DNA of 15,512 nucleotides from a virus (taxonomy: Duplodnaviria; Heunggongvirae; Uroviricota; Caudoviricetes). Made by a program: the position numbers and the translations under genes. The DNA is taken from the IMG/VR virus record IMGVR_UViG_2617270964_000015; one strand, given 5' to 3'. Below are positions 1 through 12,119 of this stretch, one piece after another. Positions within the stretch are counted from its first letter, which is position 1; each line of letters starts with the position of its first letter. The notes under the pieces were generated by a model. It did not search any database. It was not told the DNA's origin and worked only from the letters and a program-made list of their open reading frames with translations.

Positions 1-375
1 GACGAACAGTGGGGCTATGTCGGGGCTAAATCGCGCCAGCGCTGGCTGTTTTACGCGTATGACAGTCTCCGGAAGACGGTTGTTGCGCACGTATTCGGTG
101 AACGCACTATGGCGACGCTGGGGCGTCTTATGAGCCTGCTGTCACCCTTTGACGTGGTGATATGGATGACGGATGGCTGGCCGCTGTATGAATCCCGCCT
201 GAAGGGAAAGCTGCACGTAATCAGCAAGCGATATACGCAGCGAATTGAGCGGCATAACCTGAATCTGAGGCAGCACCTGGCACGGCTGGGACGGAAGTCG
301 CTGTCGTTCTCAAAATCGGTGGAGCTGCATGACAAAGTCATCGGGCATTATCTGAACATAAAACACTATCAATAA
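1..375 (+). CDS. insB: IS1 transposase InsB reading frame, 5'-truncated by the window edge
   Basis: Open frame from base 1 to TAA at 373-375; the ORF track reports the internal ATG at 109 (88 aa) but the frame is open from base 1 and matches InsB throughout. IS1 transposase is made as an InsA-InsB fusion by frameshifting, so an independent start is not expected. Confidence 0.85.
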
Positions 376-390
376 GTTGGAGTCATTACC
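1..390 (+). mobile_element. IS1: IS1 insertion sequence, 3' portion (element continues beyond the left window edge)
   Basis: Frame-1 translation from base 1 reads [44 protein letters not shown]...HYLNIKHYQ, which I recognise as the C-terminal part of IS1 InsB. Stop TAA at 373-375 is followed by the IS1 right terminal inverted repeat atcaataagttggagtcattacc at 368-390. Left end and any target-site duplication are outside the window. Confidence 0.9.
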
Positions 391-1257
391 GCCAGTTAGC
401 GCGCCATTTACACGTATTTCTATATTTTTCTCAGATTCAGAAAGCAGAGATATTATTCTTTTTGCACAGAGTTCGTCTATTTCATATAGATTCATTATTT
501 TCTTACCAAGAACAAACTCAATTTTTACAGGCAAGTCTTCAAAACTATTAATCATCTGATCGTCATTTTCATCATAAATCTCACTCTCGTTTTTTTTGAT
601 ATCAAAATCATCTGTTTCAAAATCTTCCTCGTACTCAAAATGATCAGCCATTTTTAACTCCTCTGGATAAATTAAATCAAAAATTTTTGTATTATAAATA
701 ACCGCATAAGCCAAATTATTTGAGATTAATAAAACATCACCAACTTCAATATCAACAAGACTTCTGTAACATGTTTTACTAAATCCAATTACAAAATGAA
801 TGGAGCAATATAACGATTTTTTGTCTAACGCTGGAGCGTTTCCGTATTGGCAGACTGTGACTTTATCTAACCAAAGATTCAATTCCCCTCTCCATATTCT
901 TATTAGTGGTTGAGCAGGGCTCAATACTCCATCAAATACTTTACCTACGCGCAAACGATTATATTTTAGTTCAGGATGCTTTAGATTTAACGGGGAACTG
1001 GATAAACTGAGCCATTCCCCTATTAACCTTTCCGTTTCTGGCATCAAAGCCATCCCAGCGAGCTCAGATGAAATTAAGGGAAATATTTCTCCAAGCAATA
1101 CCCATCCAGACCAGCTGCCACTCTCTTCTGCTATCGGTAGCCATTTAGCACTAAATTCGGGCATTAATAATGCAACATCTTCGCCATTTTCTTTCCAATT
1201 TTGAAAAGTGGTTTCAAACGTATGAGTGTTTCGATTTACTTTCCTCAGACCGAACAT
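391..1257 (-). pseudogene. Type III secretion SctQ/FliN-like protein with SpoA domains, 3' end cut by the IS1 insertion
   Basis: ATG at 1257-1255 with an AAGGA-like RBS upstream. The translation contains two SpoA-like segments, LVDIEVGDVLLISNN and DLPVKIEFVLGKKIMNLYEIDELCAKRIISLLSESEKNIEIRVNG, the second aligning closely to the FliN/SpaO C-terminal SpoA domain. The ORF-track frame (310..1257) continues into IS1 sequence, so the last ~27 codons are IS1-derived and the native C-terminus is lost. AT-rich by eye. Confidence 0.45.
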
Positions 1258-1388
1258 TAACTTTCATCCTTCTGATCGTTTTCGAATTTGCTTTCATTTT
1301 CTTGCTCCTCATAAGGCTGATGTCGTTGTCCTTGTCGTTCATCTTGCTCAGTCAATACCCAACGTTGTGCTGTAACTCATTATGAAAA

Positions 1389-2999
1389 CTATTTAATTCC
1401 CTCATCATTGATAAGATTGGACATCTCTTTCAACATGAGAGTCATTGAAGCTTTCGACCAATTTAGCGGAATGATAGGGCTTGGCGCTTCATGCAAAGTT
1501 CCCGACTTGTGGATATAGTTATAGCTTTCGGGAAGTGCCATTTCTGGTACGCTCCTGCCATTTGCACCAATCATATTCTCGCCTGTTATTTGGGCCAATG
1601 ATCTATTCATAAATTGCACTGAGTCATTCAAATACTCTTCTTTTCTTGATTCTTTATAAACAATTGCTGCTGATTTTGCATACCATGAGTCAAAAAACCA
1701 TTCTGCTTCTGTTGATGGAATGAAGCTCTTTTCTCTTTTCACATGTGAATTTTGATCGGTATCGGTTTTAATATCATTGAACCAAAAATTTGCCGACTGA
1801 TAATTATCCTTCTCGTATCTTTTTATACCATACGGACCTGCTAGTTTTTTAACTATTTTTAGAACCTGCTCTTTTCTTCTGGTGTTTATCTTTGCAAGAT
1901 TTGCAGGATAAATAACATTAAGTAAAGCCGCATCGGCTTCTCTGTAATGTTTATCTTTTTCCAGATAACCTGGGGATTCTCCCCCTAAATCAAGCTGTAA
2001 CGTTATTCTTTCATAACCTTTATCTATGAGGTGGTTCAACCTCGTTGTTGAAAGAGGTTCATCCAGTTCATTGGCTTTAGCTTCGCGTAGTAAATCAGAG
2101 ACAAAAACAGAGTCTTTCTTCGAGAGTAAGTTCGACAAACGTTCCAGTCCAGAGGTCACCAGTGCAACGGAAGATGTGTTTAATCGGGCATCTTCTTCCC
2201 ATGCTCCGGAATCTTCCATAACATAGAAATTGGCTTTATCCAGATAAGCAATCAGCAGCGCAACCGATTTTAATCGGTCACCTTTTTGCCAATCTTCAGC
2301 GTTAATTGTACCAGTGTCGATTGCTTGTATAAGGAGATCAAGATAAAGACCTAACGCATCATTTTGTTTATGGTTCCACAGCTGCGGCTTGCCTTCTTCC
2401 TGCACATCTGCCATCACGGGGAAGTTGCTGTCAAATCGGATATGCACAGCATTCATTTGCCCGGGAACTCCATCCAGTCGTTTGGGGTTGCTAATGACGT
2501 CCTGCATCCGCTTAATCTGGTCGGGCGTAGACATATAATCCCACAGGGTGAGCAGAACCTTTTTTGCGGCTACACTATTTCCCTGATCTGATACTAATGC
2601 CATATAGCCCCATAAACTATCCCTCAGCCAGACAGCATCATAGTGGGTTTCTGCCGCTGTTTTGTCATCTTCGAAAGTAGAAGCAAGAATAAATGTTCCC
2701 CAGGGTTTCTCCGTCAACGTTAACTTTCGTGTGTTTTCTGTTAATGTTAACAACCCTTGAATTTCGTCTTTGGTATAGTGGCTCTTTATTTCATTTTTTA
2801 ATTTGGCTGAGTGAATCAGAAGACGATAATTAGGGTACTTATCTGGATTTAACGATAAATAACTTTTATCTGTTGCTGCCCCCGTGGAATTAAGAATGTT
2901 AAATACAGATTCACTCGTCACTTCTGCCCCTGTCGCCTGGCATGTGCCGCACGAAAATATACCAGCGAGCAGAAGAGTTAATGCAGATTTCCCTTTCAT
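1389..2999 (-). CDS. Glycoside hydrolase family 15-like (glucoamylase-like) exported protein or lipoprotein
   Basis: Long ORF (track 1389..3041 begins at a GTG). The ATG at 2999-2997 gives MKGKSALTLLLAGIFSCGTCQA, a signal peptide with a possible lipobox cysteine. Internal DSGAWEED resembles the GH15 catalytic-region signature (S-G-x-W-E-E). AT-rich gene. Confidence 0.6.
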   Translation of the reverse strand: MKGKSALTLLLAGIFSCGTCQATGAEVTSESVFNILNSTGAATDKSYLSLNPDKYPNYRLLIHSAKLKNEIKSHYTKDEIQGLLTLTENTRKLTLTEKPWGTFILASTFEDDKTAAETHYDAVWLRDSLWGYMALVSDQGNSVAAKKVLLTLWDYMSTPDQIKRMQDVISNPKRLDGVPGQMNAVHIRFDSNFPVMADVQEEGKPQLWNHKQNDALGLYLDLLIQAIDTGTINAEDWQKGDRLKSVALLIAYLDKANFYVMEDSGAWEEDARLNTSSVALVTSGLERLSNLLSKKDSVFVSDLLREAKANELDEPLSTTRLNHLIDKGYERITLQLDLGGESPGYLEKDKHYREADAALLNVIYPANLAKINTRRKEQVLKIVKKLAGPYGIKRYEKDNYQSANFWFNDIKTDTDQNSHVKREKSFIPSTEAEWFFDSWYAKSAAIVYKESRKEEYLNDSVQFMNRSLAQITGENMIGANGRSVPEMALPESYNYIHKSGTLHEAPSPIIPLNWSKASMTLMLKEMSNLINDEGIK

Positions 3000-3306
3000 A
3001 AAATATTCCATCAATCGTTTGTTAAAAGCGTAGATAACCACTTATTTAACAACTTGAAAATAAGGTGTTTTACCTGGGTTGTTACAAAAGGATTGCATTG
3101 CGTAAACGCTTTTTATTTACAACAAAATGGGGAAATATTACGGCGATTGCGAAAAGTCTGAAGCGATTGAATTAAGATAATATAGAAAATCAGATACAGC
3201 AAAAATGGCAGATTGATGAGGCGAAGATAAATTGGAGCGGCGAAGGGAACAATACAACAAGCAACAAGACCAGTAATAAAGGCACATTCTCGAGTTCTAA
3301 AATAGA

Positions 3307-3328: not shown

Positions 3329-3830
3329 GTTTATCACTCGCTTGGGGATTACACATCCCTGTTATCCGTGATCAAGCTGGTGGCGTTCCTGTTGCAGCAC
3401 AACGGAAACAGGTAGTGAACATCCGTTAAGTTTGCTTGCTGGTTACCGGGTTGAAATGGGTTAGTAGGGGGAGCGGTACGCATTCCACGTATCGGTTTCG
3501 TATCCGGTGGATGTTCTGCGTACTTTTTTGCACAAGACCAGTAATGGCGGTCTTTCCGCTGGTACGCACTTTTCTTTTTGCGTACCACTTTTGCGCACTT
3601 TTTCAAGGTCGGATCACAGATTCCCACCATTATGGGACCAGTTGAAGGGGCCGAACAAATCAATAGCTGTGGTGGTATCGTTTTGCATGTCAGGTTTTGA
3701 CAGGTTTTTATGGACTCCGAAAACTCACTGCACCAGATGCGCAATACATCGCGCTCATTTCGTTAACTAACGTCGCGCGCGTACTTGTCGCAAAATGTCG
3801 CAATTTTGCGTTATCGGGAATATCAGCAAG

Positions 3831-5335: not shown

Positions 5336-6007
5336 TTATTCCACCAGCAAAAATGGCGTTGCCCGGTCAATAACGTTGATGCCAATTAACGAGCTAACAT
5401 TGCGACCATTCACAATGCTATCCCGTTCAAGCAAATGCGCTATTTTTTCTACTTCATACCAGTATTGAGCCATGAGGGCTTTGGTCTTTTCAACGAGTTT
5501 AGAAAGCATTAACTCCCTGTTAATTCGCTTATCTGTAGCGCAGATTAAATCGAGCATGTCATTTACGTTAGCCATGTCATAGCGATGAGGCAGCGAATAC
5601 TTTTTGTTGAAAATATCGTTGTTTTCGTAAAGGGCTTCGCTTACTGGTCCGGCGAGGGATACAAAAGCGGCCTTTATTGCATCGCGCTTTATACCATCCG
5701 CATAGTAACGTATGAAAGGGATAACTTTACCATCCCGCCCAACTACACCAGATTTACTATCCCGCAAACGCCCGAGATCGTGGCTGTGAATTATGCTGTG
5801 TTTAACAACGCCCAAACACTTGGCCTCATGTACATGTTCGCCAGCAACGTAACCGTATTCATCCATAACGGCGATAACCTGTACATCTAAGCGAATAAGC
5901 CATGCAGCTACTGCATGGCCCGCTTCGTGGAATGCTACACATCGTTTACCATCGCCTATCCAGTTATAGAACATTTCCTGCTCATATATCTGGTGAATGG
6001 CGCCCAT
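5336..6007 (-). CDS. Stand-alone FtsH/peptidase-M41-like HExxH zinc metalloprotease domain protein (no AAA ATPase domain)
   Basis: ATG at 6007-6005 overlaps the upstream stop (TAATG). The translation carries CVAFHEAGHAVAAWL, with the HEAGH codons at about 5914-5928 on the minus strand, resembling the FtsH protease-domain zinc motif (HEAGHA). Downstream SLAGPVSEALYEN and NVNDMLDLICATDK resemble later FtsH protease-domain segments. At 223 aa it is too short to include an ATPase module. Confidence 0.6.
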   Translation of the reverse strand: MGAIHQIYEQEMFYNWIGDGKRCVAFHEAGHAVAAWLIRLDVQVIAVMDEYGYVAGEHVHEAKCLGVVKHSIIHSHDLGRLRDSKSGVVGRDGKVIPFIRYYADGIKRDAIKAAFVSLAGPVSEALYENNDIFNKKYSLPHRYDMANVNDMLDLICATDKRINRELMLSKLVEKTKALMAQYWYEVEKIAHLLERDSIVNGRNVSSLIGINVIDRATPFLLVE

Positions 6008-6183
6008 TACGCGCCCTCGCTTGCCAGTGAGGCCAGAGCCTTAGCCATGAGGCCGCGGGCAATCTGGTGAACGGTGGGAGCGACGCCGAGATTGGAGCGC
6101 TGGCGTTCACGTTCCTGAATGTTGCGTATGGCCTGCATCTGCTCGGCGGACAGCAGGACCGGCTTAACGTTTGGCTTTCTCAT
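6007..6183 (-). CDS. Small basic protein (~58 aa), translationally coupled to the protease-domain gene
   Basis: The ORF-track frame 6007..6276 begins at a TTG (6276-6274, shown as M). The ATG at 6183-6181 gives MRKPNVKPVLLSAEQMQAIRNIQERERQRSNLGVAPTVHQIARGLMAKALASLASEGA; an ATG at 6207-6205 is also in frame. Stop TAA (6009-6007) overlaps the downstream ATG. The true start is uncertain. Confidence 0.35.
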   Translation of the reverse strand: MRKPNVKPVLLSAEQMQAIRNIQERERQRSNLGVAPTVHQIARGLMAKALASLASEGA

Positions 6184-6358
6184 TCTGTTCACTCCAGAAC
6201 CGTGCATTTGATTCGTTGAGTTGCTGCAGGTTGCGACTCTGGCGATCGAAGTTATTGCGTGCCTTTGCCGCTTCAAGATCCTGACGGGTCAGCATCGGGC
6301 GGTGGGCGCGCTGTGGGTTGCCTGCGGCTAATTTCGGGTCATAGATAGGCATGCTCAT
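6164..6358 (-). CDS. Small hypothetical protein (64 aa)
   Basis: ATG at 6358-6356 sits 6 nt after the stop of the 183-aa gene and is preceded by AAAGAG. The 3' end overlaps the start region of the 58-aa ORF in another frame by about 20 nt. Confidence 0.4.
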   Translation of the reverse strand: MSMPIYDPKLAAGNPQRAHRPMLTRQDLEAAKARNNFDRQSRNLQQLNESNARFWSEQNEKAKR

Positions 6359-6364
6359 ATCTCT

Positions 6365-6916
6365 TTAGTGTTTTTTGCCCCAGAAGGTGGCGTTGTCAGC
6401 ATTGATGCTGCGGATTGCGTCTCCTGTAGAAATTATTTTCGGAGCGATATTGTTTGCTTTCATGTAGTCGCCAACCTGCTCGAGTATATCGATAGCCTGA
6501 TCCAGCTGGATTTCTGACATTGGGGTAGGGTGTACGGCGCTGAACGCCTCAGCAGGGGCGTAGCGCAGCACATCGAGCGCAACGATGCGCGGGTCGGCGT
6601 CGGGCAGTGCTGAATCGTATTTCGGCGCTACGGCACGTACCAGACGCATGAACTCAGCATTCATTGCTATCGGTGCCGTGGAAGTAGCAGACGTGCCATT
6701 CAAACCGCGGGAAATCATATCACTGTCGCGGGTGTACATGCGGCGCAGGCGGTCGCCGGTGGCGATGCGCATTTTGCGTTCTTTCTCGAGTGTCGTTGCA
6801 AGACTTGCAATGATGGTCGCAACGGTTCCGCTGCACTGGAACTCCTCTTTACTGCCGTCGGCATACGTCACCACGCCATCTTCGCCAGTCACGGCGATGT
6901 TTGTAATATCTTTCAT
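6365..6916 (-). CDS. Hypothetical protein (183 aa), first gene of a four-gene cassette
   Basis: ATG at 6916-6914 with GAGG 8 nt upstream on the coding strand. Stop TAA at 6367-6365. No motif I can assign. Confidence 0.6.
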   Translation of the reverse strand: MKDITNIAVTGEDGVVTYADGSKEEFQCSGTVATIIASLATTLEKERKMRIATGDRLRRMYTRDSDMISRGLNGTSATSTAPIAMNAEFMRLVRAVAPKYDSALPDADPRIVALDVLRYAPAEAFSAVHPTPMSEIQLDQAIDILEQVGDYMKANNIAPKIISTGDAIRSINADNATFWGKKH

Positions 6917-7030
6917 CGGTCAGACCTCAGTATGTTCTATCGGATATTTATGTTTCATTATACGCAATAATGATATTTATTGTTGCAATTATTGCAATGT
7001 GTTTTTCTTGTGATAACATGCAAATTGAGG
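6917..7030 (-). promoter_or_regulatory. Promoter/operator-like region upstream of the 183-aa gene
   Basis: AT-rich. A perfect TATAAT on the minus strand (plus-strand attata at 6957-6962). Two adjacent palindromes: caataa-tgatat-ttattg (6965-6982) and ttgcaat-t-attgcaa (6983-6997). The best -35 candidate, ttgcaa, lies 20 nt from the -10, which is too far, so exact promoter geometry is unresolved. Confidence 0.4.
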
Positions 7031-7087
7031 TCAGAACTCAATGAGTTGGTTCCAAACATGGTTACTGGTACACAAAAGCCCGTGCGT

Positions 7088-7115
7088 CTCCAGCGCGGGC
7101 TTTTTACTGGCACAA
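7088..7115 (+). terminator. Intrinsic terminator-like hairpin (plus strand), A-run before and T-run after
   Basis: gcccgtg / cgcgggc stem (7 bp with one G-U pair), 9-nt loop, followed by ttttt at 7111-7115 and preceded by aaaa. Confidence 0.45.
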
Positions 7116-7123
7116 AAAAGCCG

Positions 7124-7147
7124 GGAAAAATCCCGGCCTCCGTCACT
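7124..7147 (-). terminator. Rho-independent terminator of the ProQ-like/PerC-like operon
   Basis: Minus-strand reading: stop TGA of the PerC-like gene, then gccggga-tttt-tcccggc (perfect 7-bp GC-rich stem, 4-nt loop; plus coordinates 7130-7147), then tttttt (plus-strand a-run 7124-7129). Confidence 0.65.
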
Positions 7148-7430
7148 GACTGCAATTTTTCGATCCAGGGTATTTCCTGAATGCCTTACCATTGGGCTGA
7201 TGTAATCCCATCCCGGCATGTGCCCGGCTGATGGTTTCGCGCATCTCCCCGAAATTATCCTGCCTTGCTGGTGGGCGTGCTGCCTTGTGGATACATTCCG
7301 CACGACGCTTTGCCGCCTGTTCCCGTGCCTTGTCATCATTCGCCAGCATGATGACCTCAGCCCACCGCGCCGCCGCTCTCCGGTACAGGCCACGCGCTTC
7401 CAGTGCTTCCGCTTTGCTGTCGTGAATCAT
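7143..7430 (-). CDS. PerC-family-like small transcriptional regulator (95 aa)
   Basis: N-terminus MIHDSKAEALEARGLYRRAAARWAEVIM matches my recollection of the PerC-family N-terminal signature (AE-LE--G-YRRAA-RW-EV). ATG at 7430-7428 overlaps the upstream stop (ATGA, 7427-7430). Confidence 0.5.
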   Translation of the reverse strand: MIHDSKAEALEARGLYRRAAARWAEVIMLANDDKAREQAAKRRAECIHKAARPPARQDNFGEMRETISRAHAGMGLHQPNGKAFRKYPGSKNCSQ

Positions 7431-7969
7431 GCGCCTGTTTTCTCCCTGGCTGCCCGGCGCTGGCGTTTGCGCTTCTCATTCAGCGCCACCAGCCGCGTTT
7501 CTGCCTCCTGCTGTTCCTGTGGTGTCACTTCCCCACATGGCTGGCCTTTCAGGTCGTAGCGTCCCCCACCAGCCATTAAGGCGCGGTAATAGCGCGGACA
7601 CTGCGCATAAGATGCCAGCGTCGCACGTAATGCCCCTGGCCCGAATGCCAGCCCCCTGACGGCGAGATCCTGCATCAGGTCGTCGAATATCCCCACCTTA
7701 AGCGGCTTCGGTGCTTCCCGGCTGAATAATTCAGGCCACAGTTCGATAAGGCGGTTAACGCGTCTGCGGTTTTTGCGCTGGCGTTTGGTCATATGCCGCC
7801 ACGGTGTCGCCCCTGTGGGCTTCTGCTGCGCTTTCTGGTTATCGGGCATCACTTTATGCGCCGATGTGGTTTTATCCTGCTCCTGTGCCGCCTGCGTCGT
7901 TTTCTGCGGCGTGCCGTAAATGCCTTTAGGTTTTCTGTTAATGGTCAGCTTTGTCATGCTTTGCCCCAT
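7427..7969 (-). CDS. ProQ/FinO-family RNA-binding protein
   Basis: PLKVGIFDDLMQDLAVRGL...YRALMAGGGRYDLKGQPCGEVTPQEQQEAETRL parallels the ProQ N-terminal FinO-like domain as I recall it (PLKIGIF-DL, RYL, R-DL-G-PCGE) and is followed by a basic tail. ATG at 7969 or at 7957-7955; the latter has GGGG 6 nt upstream. Confidence 0.7.
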   Translation of the reverse strand: MGQSMTKLTINRKPKGIYGTPQKTTQAAQEQDKTTSAHKVMPDNQKAQQKPTGATPWRHMTKRQRKNRRRVNRLIELWPELFSREAPKPLKVGIFDDLMQDLAVRGLAFGPGALRATLASYAQCPRYYRALMAGGGRYDLKGQPCGEVTPQEQQEAETRLVALNEKRKRQRRAAREKTGA

Positions 7970-7974
7970 CGTTA

Positions 7975-8312
7975 CAACTGTCTACCAACTGTCTACTGAT
8001 ATAATTTATTGATTTATTTCATATTATTCACACATGAATAAAAAACAACCTATCAACTATCTACCAACTGTCTACCGCATTAATGCATTGATAATTAATG
8101 ATTTTTACTAAATGGTAGACAGAGTAGACAGTTAAAAGAGAAATTTTAAAAATGAACCCTTAACTATCTGTTTTTATATACCCCCCGTGGTTTAGGAATA
8201 TAGAAACAACTGTCTACTCTCTACCACATTTAAAAATATCTATACAATTCAATGTATTAATTGGTAGATAGTTGGTAGAGGGTTAAGTATTACTGTCTAC
8301 CAACAGTCTACC
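7975..8312. repeat. Iteron array: about 12 copies of a 10-11 bp motif CAACTGTCTAC(C) in six tandem pairs, both orientations; putative replication origin
   Basis: Direct pairs at 7975-7996 (caactgtctac x2), 8054-8075 (caactatctac + caactgtctac), 8207-8226 and 8292-8312. Inverted pairs at 8114-8133 (ggtagacagagtagacagtt) and 8262-8280 (ttggtagatagttggtagag). AT-rich stretches lie between pairs at about 8000-8050 and 8135-8200. The array sits directly 3' of the primase gene. Confidence 0.6.
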
Positions 8313-10145: not shown

Positions 10146-10432
10146 TTCTTACCTCCCGCAACCAACATTGCCCGGATTTTTTTAATATTCGTGGCTGCAC
10201 GTCTCGCCACTGCCTGTTGTTTGTTTTCAAGCAGAATAAAATCACGCTCAAACTGACGGCGCGGCATTACGCAGTCATATTCGTAAGCCTCACGGCGGTA
10301 GGTGATATTGCCTGGCGTAACGTGACGAATAACCACTCGTCCCCCACGCCTGGTGTCGCGGTAAATATCTCCGTGTCTGATTTCAGGTCGAGAGAGGCCG
10401 CTGGCAGTAAAGCCAGAATTTTTCTTTTTCAT
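10142..10432 (-). CDS. Hypothetical basic protein (96 aa), translationally coupled to the primase gene
   Basis: ATG at 10432-10430; stop TGA overlaps the primase GTG start. Lys/Arg-rich, no motif assigned. Confidence 0.5.
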   Translation of the reverse strand: MKKKNSGFTASGLSRPEIRHGDIYRDTRRGGRVVIRHVTPGNITYRREAYEYDCVMPRRQFERDFILLENKQQAVARRAATNIKKIRAMLVAGGKK

Positions 10433-10485
10433 GGTTTTATTTTCCTGTCAGCAGTTCCGGTTTTATTTCCGCACGAATACAGAGT

Positions 10486-10638
10486 TCAGAAAAAAAATTC
10501 AGGAGAACCAACAATCTCATTACTTTTCAGTCGGCATTGTGATTTCACTTTCCCTTTATCCAAGTAAACCAGCACGCGTCCGGTGAAATCATCTGGCACA
10601 CTCAGGGTAATTGTCATTGTTGCTTGCTGATTATCCAT
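10486..10638 (-). CDS. Small ORF (50 aa) carrying the third copy of an FTG repeat unit; likely the out-of-frame 3' part of the upstream gene
   Basis: ATG at 10638-10636 lies immediately after the homopolymer. The translation MDNQQATMTITLSVPDDFTGRVLVYLDKGKV... repeats the FTG-x-LV unit found twice in the upstream ORF. Confidence 0.3.
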   Translation of the reverse strand: MDNQQATMTITLSVPDDFTGRVLVYLDKGKVKSQCRLKSNEIVGSPEFFF

Positions 10639-11000
10639 GATTCCCCCCCCCCCTGAATAACCTGATAACCGCAACTGGTCAGCAATTCGATAAATTCCGG
10701 CAATGTGCCGAAACAGCAATCATCACGCAGACGTTCGCGGGATACCTCAACGTCGTTTTCATAATGGCTCACCATGCGTCCGGTAAAATGCAAATCATCA
10801 TCGTGATGGCACGTTGACGGTTTAATCAGTCGCGCACGCTCTGCCAGTTCCAGCAATGCTTCAACACTTCCGGCAATTGCACCATCCGGCAGGTGGTAAT
10901 TACGCACTATGCGCCCGTTCTCCACATGGACCAGTAGCTGCCCGGTAAATTTCTCGTCAAACTGAATGCGGTTAAGGTCGGTAAGTGACAGGTTAATCAT
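10614..11000 (-). CDS. Hypothetical protein with two internal repeats (128 aa as read), ending just after a G11 tract
   Basis: ATG at 11000-10998 overlaps the upstream stop (ATGATTAA). Repeats DEKFTGQLLVHVENGRIV and DLHFTGRMVSHYENDVEV. C-terminus ...VIQGGGESWIISKQQ is encoded across the homopolymer. Confidence 0.5.
   Translation of the reverse strand: MINLSLTDLNRIQFDEKFTGQLLVHVENGRIVRNYHLPDGAIAGSVEALLELAERARLIKPSTCHHDDDLHFTGRMVSHYENDVEVSRERLRDDCCFGTLPEFIELLTSCGYQVIQGGGESWIISKQQ
10643..10653. repeat. Homopolymeric tract C11 (G11 on the coding minus strand) inside a coding region
   Basis: ttcccccccccccctg; eleven consecutive C at 10643-10653. Confidence 0.9.
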
Positions 11001-11358
11001 GGCGCACCTCCTGGCGAATACGGGCGGCGAATACCATCACGCAGCCATCAGGAGATTGCTGGCGTGCTTCCTGTTCGCTGGTGGCCTCGATGTGAATCAC
11101 GCGCGGTTGTGCCGTACTCAGGGCGATAAAACGCCAGATAGAATTGTTTTCGCATTTCTGAATAAACAGCGTGTTTTCTTCGCGCCCTTTCCATGTTGCC
11201 GAGATATAGCCCATGTCATTGAGCATCTCGCAGGCATCCACCAGCGTATCAGCGGCTACGTGTACAGTGTTTTTACCGTCAGCTATGCAATCACGGTGCA
11301 CCGCCAGGAAGGTGTATATAAATTTAGGGTGAGTTTGGGTATGCTGTGTTCCAGCCAT
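10993..11358 (-). CDS. Hypothetical protein (121 aa), first gene of the primase operon
   Basis: ATG at 11358-11356 with GAGG upstream on the coding strand. This is the 3' third of the 382-aa ORF-track entry 10993..12141, whose upstream part crosses the divergent regulatory region and a plus-strand gene. Stop overlaps the next start. Confidence 0.5.
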   Translation of the reverse strand: MAGTQHTQTHPKFIYTFLAVHRDCIADGKNTVHVAADTLVDACEMLNDMGYISATWKGREENTLFIQKCENNSIWRFIALSTAQPRVIHIEATSEQEARQQSPDGCVMVFAARIRQEVRHD

Positions 11359-11557
11359 AATCGTTACCTCGTTTAACGGTTTGGTTAGAAGCCCCGTTAC
11401 TGCTCCAACAGTGCGGGGCTTCGTTGTTTCAATTGCTGAATTGCATGTATCAGCCCTTGTGGTATTCAGATTACATTTTGGTGAATACCATTTCAAGTCT
11501 TTTTTGGTATTCACTTTTGTATTACACTGCATCCCGTTATTAATCGGAGGTGCAAAC
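11359..11557. promoter_or_regulatory. Divergent intergenic control region with hairpin and GGTATTCA operator-like repeats
   Basis: Stem-loop gaagccccg-(17 nt)-cggggcttc at about 11390-11425. Three copies of GGTATTCA / TGAATACC at about 11460-11516, one inverted. GGAGG at 11546-11550 precedes the ATG at 11558. Confidence 0.45.
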
Positions 11558-11863
11558 ATGTCCACGAGTTCTGTTAACAATAAGTCACAGCAACTGAATG
11601 CCAGATTTCCACATGAAGTAGTGAGTGGCATTGAGGCATCCCTACAGCCAGGGGAAACTAAAGCGAATTTTATAGTTACGGCTGTACGCGGTGAGATCGC
11701 CCGCCGCCAGGCAGAAGGAAGCGGAGAAAACCCCCTAGTTTCTTCGCTCGATGCGCTGGCGCAGGTGGAAAAAATCGGTGTCAAAGCTGCCGAGGAGATC
11801 GGGCAACTCGTCACCGTCGCGCGTGAAGAACTCCAGCGGCGCAAGGCCAAAGAACAGGAGTAG
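11558..11863 (+). CDS. Ribbon-helix-helix (Arc/MetJ-type) DNA-binding regulator, 101 aa
   Basis: ATG at 11558 seven nt after GGAGG; the ORF-track start at 11381 is unlikely because it crosses the control region. QQLNARFPHEVVSGIEA then ANFIVTAVRGEIARRQ fits the beta-strand-helix-helix pattern of Arc-like repressors. It is the only confident plus-strand gene inside the element. Confidence 0.55.
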   Translation: MSTSSVNNKSQQLNARFPHEVVSGIEASLQPGETKANFIVTAVRGEIARRQAEGSGENPLVSSLDALAQVEKIGVKAAEEIGQLVTVAREELQRRKAKEQE

Positions 11864-12087
11864 TTGATCAGCACCGGGCAACCAGAAAAAATCGTATCAG
11901 TTGCGCCACCAGCAAATTTTTTTGCTTTCCGGACGACGTTGCCAACGGCATTTTGCAGCAAAATATTCCGCATTTCTGGCGTACTGTAGTAACGGTGATC
12001 AGCGCCTTCACTCTGTGCGACCACAACGCTATAATCTGCCTCGTAGACAGTAAGCAATATAGCGCAGTAGAATATTCGTTCACAAAG

Positions 12088-12119
12088 GCGCTCCGGCAAC
12101 GGGGCGCTTTCTCTTTTTG
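12088..12119 (+). terminator. Intrinsic terminator-like hairpin, plus strand
   Basis: gcgctcc-ggcaac-ggggcgc (7-bp stem with one G-U pair, 12088-12107) followed by tttctctttttg (12108-12119). It lies about 225 nt past the stop of the plus-strand regulator gene and about 27 nt past the stop of the convergent minus-strand gene. Confidence 0.5.

What the first reader, a model, noticed from the sequence alone, without database searches (positions are those of the whole stretch)
7085..7150. Tandem hairpins forming a bidirectional transcriptional insulator
Two GC-rich hairpins sit back to back, one with a T-run on the plus strand (7088-7115) and one a textbook terminator on the minus strand (7124-7147) whose stem begins right after the PerC-like stop codon. 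Together they isolate the ProQ/PerC unit from the cassette, supporting the cassette as an autonomous module.
Basis: seen in the sequence. Interest (0 to 1): 0.2.

Follow-up and report, generated by a model that had tools for sequence, protein, structure and literature searches.

The report
Convergent terminators at satellite module junction
Two real transcription-terminator hairpins face each other where the replication/regulator genes of an E. coli phage satellite meet a swappable cargo cassette; this is ordinary gene punctuation, except that one hairpin appears to end a conserved, so far unannotated small RNA gene that travels with the cassette.

Summary
Hairpin 1 is 7074-7105 and hairpin 2 is 7114-7141. 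They are two of only four strong terminator-like sites in the window (0.45 expected by chance).

The window is an E. coli PICI-type phage satellite: int, alpA, primase, ProQ/FinO, PerC, then cargo.

Hairpin 2 is a textbook minus-strand intrinsic terminator 5 nt after the PerC stop codon. It travels with the early module. Elsewhere it follows an SSB gene, or is degraded.

Hairpin 1 belongs to the cargo cassette. In 18 other E. coli genomes the cassette sits in a different island slot, and homology ends exactly at the last T of hairpin 1.

Across 18 distinct homologues (adjacent protein 41-100% identical), hairpin 1 keeps its stem through compensatory changes. It always has 5-7 U on the plus strand. 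It always lies 40-66 nt downstream of a conserved extended -10 promoter that diverges from the first cassette gene.

Hairpin 1 is therefore most likely the terminator of an ~80-nt small RNA (about 7025-7105, plus strand) with no Rfam family.

The "insulator between autonomous modules" reading is broadly right. The units are convergent, not back to back, and expression was not measured. The terminators are ordinary. The small RNA family is a modest novelty.

The parts
7074..7105 (+). Hairpin 1: an intrinsic terminator with an A-tract (7074-7077), stem 7078-7085/7093-7100, loop 7086-7092 and U-tract 7101-7105. It is the right-hand end of the cargo cassette module. On the minus strand it reads as a weaker terminator (C.A mismatch, tail UUUUGUGU).
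   Evidence: Fold: dG -20.9, z -4.1 on the plus strand; -17.1, z -2.3 on the minus strand. Across 18 distinct homologues, 92.6% of cells are paired and 4 pairs carry compensatory changes; 0-2 of 500 shuffles reach the observed values, and slid controls give 23-72%. A smaller set agrees. Homology with 18 other E. coli genomes ends exactly at 7105.
7114..7141 (-). Hairpin 2: the intrinsic terminator of the ProQ/FinO-PerC operon. Stem 7120-7126/7131-7137, loop 7127-7130. On the minus strand the U-tract is 7119-7114. There is an optional G.U/A-U stem extension up to 7141.
   Evidence: Fold: dG -19.2, z -4.3, 0 of 200 shuffles as good. The core stem alone is -13.7, followed by U6. It starts 5 nt after the PerC stop. 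The same stem and flanks follow PerC in about 24 of 46 related loci and follow an SSB gene in L089. The plus strand has no U-tract (CUCCGUC).
7025..7105 (+). Candidate ~80-nt small RNA. It has a 5' stem-loop (UUGAG-GUCAGAA-CUCAA, 7024-7040), a conserved unpaired core that includes CAUGGUU (7057-7063), and hairpin 1 as terminator. Expression is inferred, not shown.
   Evidence: The covariance model built from 18 homologues matches 7025-7105 at 68.7 bits; the window is a training sequence. The architecture is conserved upstream of every c183 homologue examined. No ORF is conserved: L007 reads ATGATGTAA. There is no Rfam family.
6992..7019 (+). Inferred sigma-70 promoter of the small RNA: -35 TTGCAA (6992-6997), 16-nt spacer, extended -10 TGaTAACAT (7011-7019).
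   Evidence: In the closer homologues (adjacent protein 61-100% identical), the -35 (TTGCAA/TTGAAA), the TG and the TAnnAT are invariant or nearly so while the 16-nt spacer sequence varies. All 8 distant homologues also keep TGnTAnnnT 40-66 nt before the terminator. In the window the hexamers match only 8 of 12, so the site falls below the consensus scan's threshold.
7106..7113 (.). Module junction: 8 nt lie between the end of hairpin 1's U-tract and the A-run that encodes hairpin 2's U-tract. Recombination breakpoints in relatives fall at 7095, 7105, 7111/7112 and about 7119.
7143..7430 (-). PerC-family gene (95 aa). Its stop codon is at 7143-7145 and its start overlaps the ProQ/FinO gene by 4 nt.
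   Evidence: Pfam PF06069, E 5e-32. ORF table. RefSeq annotation of the near-identical locus.
7427..7969 (-). ProQ/FinO-domain gene (180 aa). It is the first gene of the two-gene unit that hairpin 2 terminates.
   Evidence: Pfam PF04352, E 3e-23. NCBIfam FinO/ProQ matches fall below the curated cut-offs.
6365..6916 (-). c183, the first gene of the cargo cassette. It is transcribed divergently from the small RNA. Function unknown.
   Evidence: No Pfam, PHROG, PADLOC or NCBIfam family. Homologues reach down to 41% identity across Enterobacterales. AlphaFold pLDDT is 66 and there is no fold match. In EPEC its 5'UTR (equivalent to window 6941-6961) is in Hfq RIL-seq chimeras with Spot 42 (PMC8550237 supplement).
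6007..6358 (-). c64 (6164-6358) and c58 (6007-6183). With c183 and the small RNA they form the conserved core of the cassette.
   Evidence: tblastn shows c183-c64-c58 co-occurring in all fetched relatives of the close clades.
5348..7105 (.). Extent of the block shared at 96% identity with EPEC E2348/69 prophage region PP12: small RNA, c183, c64, c58 and most of the M41-like gene 5336-6007.
   Evidence: blastn of the window against L002. L002 annotation.

Best explanation
The window is an E. coli PICI-type phage satellite, and 7074-7141 is the junction between two of its mosaic modules. Two convergent transcripts end there, 8 nt apart, each at its own Rho-independent terminator.

Hairpin 2 (minus strand) ends the ProQ/FinO-PerC operon. 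It belongs to the satellite's early/replication-side module.

Hairpin 1 (plus strand) belongs to the cargo cassette. It ends a short (~80 nt) non-coding transcript started at an extended -10 promoter (6992-7019). That promoter lies back to back with the promoter of the cassette's first gene, c183.

Hairpin 1 has an A-tract as well as a U-tract, so it can also act as a weaker second terminator for minus-strand read-through from PerC. The net effect is that transcription is blocked in both directions, and the cassette runs from its own promoter.

Shown here: the hairpins, their statistics, their module membership, and the covariation and conserved synteny of promoter and terminator.

Inferred: that termination occurs, that the small RNA is made, and what it does. 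My guess is a regulatory RNA of the cassette or of the satellite-helper interplay.
For: - Hairpin thermodynamics and shuffles.
- Two of the four strongest terminator-like sites in the window, against 0.45 expected.
- PICI identity: int, AlpA-type HTH, DUF4222, primase and PerC next to a tRNA-Gly gene. This matches published E. coli PICI descriptions (PMC6092414, PMC11773190).
- Module membership. The cassette with hairpin 1 occurs in 21 of 5426 genomes. In 18 of them it lies outside the PerC context and homology ends at 7105. PerC-side homology starts at 7095 or 7111/7112.
- Hairpin 2 follows an SSB gene in L089.
- Hairpin 1 is conserved with compensatory changes: GCCCGUGC/GCGCGGGC, GCCCAGGC/GCUUGGGC, GCCCACAU/AUGUGGGC, GCCCGCG/CGCGGGC.
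- The plus strand has 5-7 contiguous U in 16 of 16 sequences. The minus strand has 3-4.
- Seven G.U cells are standard pairs only on the plus strand.
- The extended -10 TGnTAnnnT lies 40-66 nt upstream of the terminator in all 18 distinct homologues. The -35 and its spacing are conserved in the closer clades.
- A conserved unpaired core, UUGCAcAAC(A/G)UG, lies between a clade-specific 5' stem and the terminator.
- In L088 the nearest gene on that side is co-directional with the small RNA, not convergent. Hairpin 1 there cannot be the terminator of an incoming gene.
- In EPEC the c183 5'UTR is expressed, although the upstream int gene ends 315 nt beyond hairpin 1.
Against: - There are no expression or 3'-end data for the small RNA. 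It is not among the EPEC Hfq RIL-seq entries I could read, but those files are truncated and cover Hfq only.
- The window's own promoter hexamers match only 8 of 12 and were not picked up by the consensus scan.
- The stem-energy asymmetry favours the plus strand in only 8 of 16 sequences. In the fully paired clades the minus strand is slightly more stable.
- The small RNA shows no complementarity to the c183 translation-initiation region beyond shuffles (z -1.3 to +0.5), so no target is known.
- The conserved TGnTAnnnT and core motif could instead be DNA sites for a regulator of the c183 promoter.
- The hairpin 2 stem does not vary among the loci that have it, so there is no covariation evidence for it.
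Confidence: 0.65

Rival explanations
1. There is no small RNA. Hairpin 1 is simply a bidirectional or back-up terminator protecting the cassette promoter from read-through of whatever lies upstream. The conserved plus-strand 'promoter' and core motif are DNA operator sites for the c183 promoter.
For: - Hairpin 1 has an invariant A-tract and a minus-strand tail of 3-4 U, so it can terminate in the island's direction.
- In Klebsiella loci the primase stop codon lies about 10 nt from the hairpin.
- TTGCAAT-like repeats cluster in the region.
- The window promoter matches only 8 of 12.
Against: - The U-tract is consistently longer on the plus strand (16 of 16 sequences).
- G.U pairs are tolerated only on the plus strand.
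- The minus-strand tail degenerates to UUUGGGAAG in L080, exactly where a gene converges on it.
- In L088 no gene converges on it.
- In EPEC the upstream int ends 315 nt away.
- The invariant positions are exactly the -35, TG and TAnnnT positions, at fixed 16-nt spacing in the closer clades.
Confidence: 0.2
2. The hairpins are recombination structures, such as integron attC-like or other site-specific sites, that mobilise the cassette rather than transcription signals.
For: Homology breakpoints coincide with the hairpins: 7095 lies inside hairpin 1, 7105 at its end, and 7111/7112 and about 7119 at the edge of hairpin 2.
Against: - The breakpoints are scattered over 25 nt and do not fall at one crossover point.
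- L003 and the window share only an 11-nt GCGGGCTTTTT microhomology at the 7095 junction. That fits homologous or illegitimate exchange between similar terminators.
- There is no integron integrase and no attC R'/R'' GTTRRRY boxes in the sequence.
- The left end of the shared block (5348) lies inside a gene and has no matching hairpin.
- The hairpins have perfect U-tracts, which recombination sites do not need.
Confidence: 0.05
3. The short plus-strand transcript is a leader or attenuator, or encodes a micro-peptide, rather than a non-coding RNA.
For: - Weak Rfam E-value matches to the Thr, Leu and Trp leaders (13-22 bits against gathering scores of 41-55).
- A GAGG lies 11 nt before an ATG at 7041.
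- In L088 a co-directional antitermination-Q-like gene follows the terminator by about 100 nt.
Against: - The Rfam matches cover only or mainly the terminator and fall far below threshold.
- The ORFs are not conserved in frame, length or sequence: a read-through ORF in the window, MM* in L007, and 10-13 aa unrelated peptides that start inside the -10 element in other clades.
- In the window and most loci, no co-directional gene follows.
Confidence: 0.05

Closest known systems
Rho-independent (intrinsic) terminators at convergent gene ends, including bidirectional terminators
   Same: Both have a GC-rich stem-loop immediately followed by a U-tract. Hairpin 2 sits 5 nt after a stop codon. Hairpin 1 has the A-tract/U-tract symmetry typical of bidirectional terminators. 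The two face each other at the end of convergent units.
   Different: Nothing unusual in the terminators themselves. The only particular point is that each belongs to a different horizontally exchanged module, so the pair was assembled by recombination.
Island- and prophage-encoded small RNAs of enterobacteria (for example the EPEC Pas sRNAs in PMC8550237; the Rfam int-alpA RNA RF02996 found in a related island)
   Same: A short transcript with its own promoter, a 5' stem-loop, a conserved unpaired stretch and an intrinsic terminator. It is encoded in an intergenic region of a mobile element, and it is conserved with covariation.
   Different: No sequence or covariance-model match to any Rfam family. 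It does not appear among the EPEC RIL-seq entries I could read. Expression, chaperone dependence and targets are all unknown. It is always linked to and divergent from the c183 gene.
Ligands of FinO-domain proteins (FinP/FinO, RocR/RocC, ProQ-bound sRNAs and 3'UTRs)
   Same: A FinO-domain gene lies two genes upstream of the hairpins. Published work (abstracts of PMC7367173, PMC9674577 and PMC12001967) says FinO domains bind intrinsic terminator hairpins and their flanking sequence. Both hairpins are such structures. Hairpin 1 has an invariant A-tract opposite its U-tail, a feature I recall as favouring ProQ over Hfq (my own knowledge, not tested).
   Different: Binding was not tested. The small RNA family occurs mostly in islands without a FinO-domain gene. 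FinO/PerC modules occur with cargo that lacks the small RNA. There is no co-inheritance.
Accessory-gene slots of E. coli PICIs and other satellites
   Same: A conserved core (int, alpA, primase, PerC) is followed by a variable accessory region at the 3' end, as described for Gram-negative PICIs (PMC6092414). The junction studied here is the border of that slot.
   Different: The cargo here matches no known defence or virulence family. The border was mapped to the nucleotide and falls in or between the terminators.

Membership tests
Intrinsic (Rho-independent) terminator: hairpin 2, minus strand | GC-rich stem-loop followed directly by a U-tract | tested here: met
   7-bp stem (6 G-C pairs), 4-nt loop, then UUUUUU. 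dG -13.7 for the core and -19.2 extended; z -4.3.
Intrinsic (Rho-independent) terminator: hairpin 2, minus strand | Located just downstream of the last gene of a transcription unit | tested here: met
   The stem starts 5 nt after the PerC stop codon at 7143-7145. The ProQ and PerC ORFs overlap by 4 nt.
Intrinsic (Rho-independent) terminator: hairpin 2, minus strand | Transcripts actually end there | not testable with these tools
   Needs Term-seq, 3'-RACE or Northern analysis.
Intrinsic terminator: hairpin 1, plus strand | GC-rich stem-loop followed directly by a U-tract, maintained by selection | tested here: met
   8-bp stem plus 4 A-U pairs, then U5. dG -20.9, z -4.1. 92.6% of cells paired with 4 compensatory pairs across 18 homologues. 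U5-U7 in 16 of 16 sequences.
Bidirectional terminator | A-tract 5' and U-tract 3' of one hairpin, so that both strands read as stem plus U-run | tested here: met
   Hairpin 1 meets this: AAAA...UUUUU. The minus strand has dG -11.9 with tail UUUUGUGU. Hairpin 2 does not: its plus-strand tail is CUCCGUC.
Small non-coding RNA gene | Own promoter and own terminator, conserved in position across homologues | tested here: met
   TGnTAnnnT lies 40-66 nt upstream of the terminator in all 18 distinct homologues. -35 TTGCAA/TTGAAA at a 16-nt spacing in the closer clades.
Small non-coding RNA gene | No conserved open reading frame | tested here: met
   The ORFs differ in frame, length and sequence; L007 reads ATG ATG TAA.
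Small non-coding RNA gene | The RNA is detectably expressed | not testable with these tools
   The only indirect datum is that the neighbouring c183 5'UTR appears in EPEC Hfq RIL-seq. No entry for the small RNA was seen in the truncated supplementary files.
Any Rfam family | Score at or above the family's gathering threshold | tested here: not met
   No hit in the window at gathering. The best E-value-mode hits reach 23 bits or less against thresholds of 41-111. Homologous loci give only int-alpA RNA, at a different place.
FinO-domain protein ligand | Terminator hairpin with a 3' U-tail (anatomy) | tested here: met
   Both hairpins have this anatomy. The anatomy is shared by most terminators, so it carries little information.
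FinO-domain protein ligand | Physical binding to, or co-inheritance with, the FinO-domain gene | tested here: not met
   Co-inheritance fails. The small RNA occurs mostly without a neighbouring FinO-domain gene, and FinO/PerC modules occur without it. Binding cannot be tested here.
Integron attC / site-specific cassette site | Conserved R'/R'' core sites, an integron integrase nearby, and a single crossover point | tested here: not met
   No GTTRRRY boxes. The only recombinase is a phage-type tyrosine integrase at the island end. Breakpoints are scattered over 7095-7119.
E. coli PICI (phage-inducible chromosomal island) | int, an AlpA-type regulator and a primase/replication module in one orientation, with no phage structural or lysis genes, integrated at a specific site | tested here: met
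   RefSeq annotation of the 98-99.8% identical locus next to tRNA-Gly. Pfam hits. Agrees with the criteria in PMC6092414 and PMC11773190.
E. coli PICI (phage-inducible chromosomal island) | Induction and packaging by a helper phage | not testable with these tools
   Needs experiment.

The most novel reading that the evidence does not exclude
The ~80-nt plus-strand transcript ending at hairpin 1 is a functional regulatory RNA family of enterobacterial phage satellites. It is always paired divergently with the c183-c64-c58 operon. Through its conserved unpaired core (UUGCAcAAC(A/G)UG) and CUCC-rich terminator loop, it controls the satellite's late/cargo operon or a helper-phage target. It may act with a FinO-domain chaperone such as the one encoded two genes upstream. 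Satellites with sequence-unrelated cargo (type A, L089) carry analogous small transcription units at the same junction, which would make this a general control point of PICI late expression.
Probability: 0.3. Interest if true: 0.55.

Novelty: new member of a known kind. Interest (0 to 1): 0.3.

Why it matters
The terminators themselves are routine.

What is useful is the nucleotide-level map of a cargo-slot border in a PICI-type satellite. It shows that cassettes are swapped at or between terminator hairpins. One exchange appears to have crossed over within an 11-nt stretch shared by two different terminators. The cassette also brings its own promoter region and terminator, which explains how cargo can work in different islands and slots.

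The comparative evidence also points to an unannotated small RNA family conserved across Escherichia, Salmonella, Klebsiella, Enterobacter, Serratia and Rahnella satellites. It gives a concrete, cheap target for Northern or Term-seq work in a standard strain, EPEC E2348/69.

Tried and rejected
1. Base pairing between the small RNA and the c183 translation-initiation region. RNAduplex energies were no better than shuffles in 9 homologues (z -1.3 to +0.5). Local 6-7-nt matches seen by eye (AACCAUG in L008/L009, UCUGACC in the window) are not conserved between clades.
2. A known RNA family. Rfam gave nothing at gathering or E-value thresholds.
3. A small ORF or attenuator. Not conserved.
4. Function of c183. 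No hit in Pfam, PHROGs, PADLOC or NCBIfam. The AlphaFold model is only moderately confident (pLDDT 66) and Foldseek against the PDB found nothing below E 0.3. The 'XRE family' name in NCBI records is unsupported here.
5. TTGCAAT as an enriched motif. It is not enriched window-wide: 4 found against 5.65 expected. It is only locally clustered.
6. Phage and plasmid collections. No near match to 6300-8000.
7. The genome-contig scan with PerC gave only two loci.
8. Stem-energy strand asymmetry as a general argument. It holds only in clades with G.U pairs (8 of 16), so I rely on the U-tract and promoter instead.
9. A literature search for the hairpin sequence found no paper.
10. attC-like or REP-like element. 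Rejected on sequence features and distribution; at most 229 of 5426 genomes carry any part of it, and the matches examined lie in this kind of island.
Full report
OBSERVATION

The region reads (plus strand, 7070-7149) ACAC AAAA GCCCGTGC GTCTCCA GCGCGGGC TTTTT ACTGGCAC AAAAAA GCCGGGA AAAA TCCCGGC CTCCG TCA CTGA.

Hairpin 1:
- A-tract 7074-7077, stem 7078-7085/7093-7100 (8 bp with one U-G), loop 7086-7092, U-tract 7101-7105.
- As RNA it folds at -20.9 kcal/mol on the plus strand (z -4.1). On the minus strand it folds at -17.1 (z -2.3), because the U-G pair becomes a C.A mismatch.

Hairpin 2:
- Stem 7120-7126/7131-7137, loop 7127-7130.
- On the minus strand it is followed by UUUUUU (7119-7114) and folds at -19.2 (z -4.3, 0 of 200 shuffles as good).
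- On the plus strand its tail is CUCCGUC, so it is a one-way terminator.

The PerC-family ORF (7143-7430, minus; Pfam PF06069, E 5e-32) stops at 7143-7145, 5 nt before the stem. It overlaps the ProQ/FinO-domain ORF (7427-7969; PF04352, E 3e-23) by 4 nt.

The 5' arm of hairpin 1 lies outside the finding's start.

The tool's simple terminator scan caught only a sub-stem of hairpin 1 and missed hairpin 2. My reading is that G-U extension of the stem consumed the T-run. My own scan looked for hairpins of <= -14 kcal/mol abutting a U-rich tail. It finds four in the window, against 0.45 in shuffles, and two of the four are these hairpins on the stated strands.

CONTEXT

The stretch 6300-8000 has no near match in the phage or plasmid collections. 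It matches 340 E. coli chromosomes, three of them over its full length.

The best match (strain EC02, 99.8% over 6300-8000; 98-99.8% over the wider colinear blocks) places the window in an island next to a tRNA-Gly gene. All island genes are on one strand, in this order: integrase, a hypothetical gene, an AlpA-type HTH, an antirepressor, Icd-like, DUF4222, primase, ProQ/FinO, PerC. Five or six unannotated genes follow, reaching ETT2 remnants (ygeQ).

This gene set and order is what the literature calls an E. coli PICI, a phage-inducible chromosomal island. Such islands carry int, alpA and a primase/replication module, some carry PerC, and accessory genes sit at the 3' end (PMC6092414, PMC11773190). 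The hairpins sit at the border between the conserved part and the accessory part.

EACH HAIRPIN BELONGS TO A DIFFERENT MODULE

The cassette side:
- Window 5348-7105 recurs at 96% identity in EPEC E2348/69. There it lies in a different island (PP12, next to yicC) and a different slot, directly after the integrase gene, with no PerC or ProQ nearby.
- The cassette's 5' end occurs in 21 of 5426 E. coli genomes. In the 18 that lack the PerC context, homology ends at window 7105, the last T of hairpin 1.

The PerC side:
- Islands with other cargo match the window only from 7095 (L003) or from 7111/7112 (L004 and others) onward.
- The exact pair of hairpins occurs in just 3 genomes.

I classified 46 PerC-containing loci by what follows PerC (44 IMG/VR contigs plus two genomes, the window being a 47th sequence in that comparison):
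- Type A, about 18 loci: hairpin 2 plus a different plus-strand-facing hairpin (AAAGCCCGCA...TGCGGGCTTTTT).
- Type C, 5 loci: the hairpin 2 stem, but with a broken U-tract and no second hairpin.
- Type D, about 18 loci: only a weak stem (-4.7 kcal/mol) before U6.
- A few unrelated arrangements.

In STEC316 the same hairpin 2 with its flanks follows an SSB gene instead of PerC. It faces yet another plus-strand terminator (AAATCCCCCGG...CCGGGGGATTTTTTTT).

Hairpin 2 therefore marks the end of the early-side operon in a subset of these satellites. It is not tied to PerC, and it is not universal.

L003 and the window share only GCGGGCTTTTT at the 7095 junction. This suggests the cassette was exchanged by a crossover within the similar 3' halves of two terminators.

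HAIRPIN 1 IS A CONSERVED RNA ELEMENT OF THE CASSETTE

I collected relatives of the first cassette gene (c183, 6365-6916) in three ways:
- a protein-based search of viral contigs;
- a DNA pattern search (12 true hits among 25, the rest being unrelated terminators);
- look-ups of distant protein homologues at 41-64% identity from Klebsiella, Serratia, Rahnella, Enterobacter and metagenomes.

In every case a hairpin AAA(A)GCCCG...CGGGCUUUUU lies 110-190 nt upstream of c183, with its U-tract pointing away from the gene.

Over 18 distinct sequences:
- 92.6% of stem cells are standard pairs.
- The four upper pairs carry compensatory changes.
- 0-2 of 500 column shuffles reach the observed values.
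- Sliding the partner columns drops pairing to 23-72%.

The strand question:
- The plus strand always has 5-7 contiguous U after the stem. The minus strand has 3-4, and only UUUGGGAAG in L080.
- Seven cells are G.U or U.G and would be mismatches on the other strand.
- Stem energy favours the plus strand by 2-5 kcal/mol in the G.U-bearing clades. In the fully paired clades it is slightly reversed (8 against 8). That argument is therefore only partial.

A PROMOTER IS CONSERVED WITH THE HAIRPIN

All 18 sequences have TGnTAnnnT, an extended -10, 40-66 nt upstream of the terminator on the same strand. In the closer clades a TTGCAA/TTGAAA -35 lies exactly 16 nt before the hexamer, while the spacer sequence varies.

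In the window these elements are 6992-6997 and 7011-7019. This gives a transcript of about 80 nt (about 7025-7105).

The RNA would have three parts:
- a clade-specific 5' stem-loop, UUGAG/CUCAA in the window and GAGGG/CCCUC or GAGAG/CUCUC in distant clades;
- a conserved unpaired core, UUGCAcAAC(A/G)UG, whose window version contains CAUGGUU at 7057-7063;
- the terminator, whose loop is nearly always CUCC-rich.

No ORF is conserved. Rfam has no matching family.

A covariance model built from the 18 sequences scores the window at 68.7 bits, but the window was in the training set. It also finds the untrained type-A element of L003 and its relatives at 22-29 bits over its full length (E about 1e-4 to 0.02, rough). 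That is weak evidence that the type-A unit is a distant relative.

The small RNA promoter and the predicted c183 promoter (-35 6997-6992, -10 6975-6970) are back to back and share the palindromic TTGCAA.

Published Hfq RIL-seq data for EPEC contain a c183 5'UTR fragment, equivalent to window 6941-6961, in chimeras with Spot 42. The cassette mRNA is therefore made from a start upstream of 6961 (PMC8550237 supplement). I saw no entry for the small RNA, but the files held are truncated and report Hfq-bound RNAs only.

MECHANISM

The best-supported reading is two convergent transcription units ending 8 nt apart. The ProQ/FinO-PerC operon ends at hairpin 2. The cassette's small divergent transcript ends at hairpin 1.

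Hairpin 1's A-tract lets it act as a weaker second stop for minus-strand read-through (-11.9 kcal/mol, tail UUUUGUGU). Hairpin 2 cannot stop plus-strand transcription.

It does so as a by-product of joining two self-contained modules, not as a dedicated device.

What the small RNA does is unknown. Pairing with the c183 ribosome-binding region is not supported. A link to the neighbouring FinO-domain protein is attractive, because such proteins bind terminator hairpins. But the two genes are not co-inherited.

Rivals considered: no small RNA and DNA operators only; recombination sites; a leader or micro-peptide. They are set out with their evidence in the rival section.

NOVELTY AND VERDICT

Intrinsic terminators at convergent gene ends are textbook. 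The cassette's autonomy is confirmed.

The modest novelty has two parts. One is an apparently unannotated small RNA family, conserved with covariation across enterobacterial satellites and always divergent from the c183-c64-c58 operon. The other is the nucleotide-level picture of cargo exchange at terminators.

Expression and function remain to be shown. Interest is about 0.3.

Noticed in passing
window 12007-12118 (+): A second strong plus-strand terminator-like hairpin lies at 12085-12110 and runs into a U-rich tail ending about 12118 (dG -17.9). Two of the best sigma-70-like promoter matches in the window precede it (12007-12035 and 12044-12073, both 10 of 12). All called genes here are on the minus strand. 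This may be another small or antisense RNA in the island's ant/icd regulatory region.
   Followed up: no
window 6983-6998; L003 about 7865-7875; L004 about 7874-7882; L089 2360-2395: TTGCAAT/ATTGCAA motifs cluster upstream of the first cargo or late gene in islands with unrelated cargo (types A, C, D and the STEC316 capsid operon). The motif is not enriched window-wide (4 found against 5.65 expected). It may be a shared operator or promoter element of the satellites' late operons. In the window the palindromic TTGCAA would serve as the -35 for both divergent promoters.
   Followed up: partly
L002 4940-5007 (-): The related EPEC island carries the Rfam int-alpA RNA motif (RF02996, 39.4 bits against a gathering score of 35.8). 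The window itself has no hit to it.
   Followed up: no
window 3376-3444: A ~65-nt stretch is shared at about 90% identity with islands L003 and L004, which otherwise have different cargo. It lies inside a 131-aa ORF with a faint match to a small terminase subunit (phrog_370, E 5e-4). It may be a conserved packaging or end-of-island element marking the far border of the cargo slot.
   Followed up: no
window 6941-6961 (-), equivalent to NC_011601 4067079-4067099: In published EPEC Hfq RIL-seq data, the 5'UTR of the c183 homologue (E2348C_3895, region PP12) forms chimeras with the core sRNA Spot 42 (10 chimeric fragments, p about 2e-6). This hints that the cassette is wired into the host's catabolite-repression sRNA network.
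   Followed up: partly
window 6365-6916 (-) and homologues P0001-P0040: NCBI names this protein family 'XRE family transcriptional regulator'. No Pfam, NCBIfam or PHROG HTH model matches it, and an AlphaFold model (pLDDT 66) has no significant PDB neighbour. The C-terminal half (about residues 85-160) is very strongly conserved.
   Followed up: partly
L082 3680-3740; L083 3400-3720 (upstream of the small RNA terminator): Tandem iterons (GTCGGTTCA x3; AGGTCGGGTAAAT repeated many times) lie between the primase gene and the small RNA terminator in Rahnella and Serratia satellites. They look like the PICI replication origin, so the small RNA gene abuts the ori there.
   Followed up: no
window 10149-11832: The window is not colinear with its best E. 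coli match (EC02) here. Only short pieces align at 90-93% identity, and the window is about 630 bp longer between the primase and the antirepressor. This is a second mosaic patch inside the island's regulatory region.
   Followed up: no
window 310-3041 (-): The left end of the window is chromosomal ETT2 territory: a FliN-like C-ring protein (PF01052) and a ygeQ-like ORF. In strain EC02, ygeQ is truncated by an IS3 insertion.
   Followed up: no
L080 4761-7771; L083 4989-6010; L088 2464-3444: In Klebsiella, Serratia and other satellites, the c183 gene heads an operon with tail-related domains (Dit_like, Pam3_gp18, Gp53-like_C, Caudo_TAP, Phage_fiber_2). There, c183 plus the small RNA sit at the start of a tail or host-range module rather than a defence-type cargo.
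   Followed up: no
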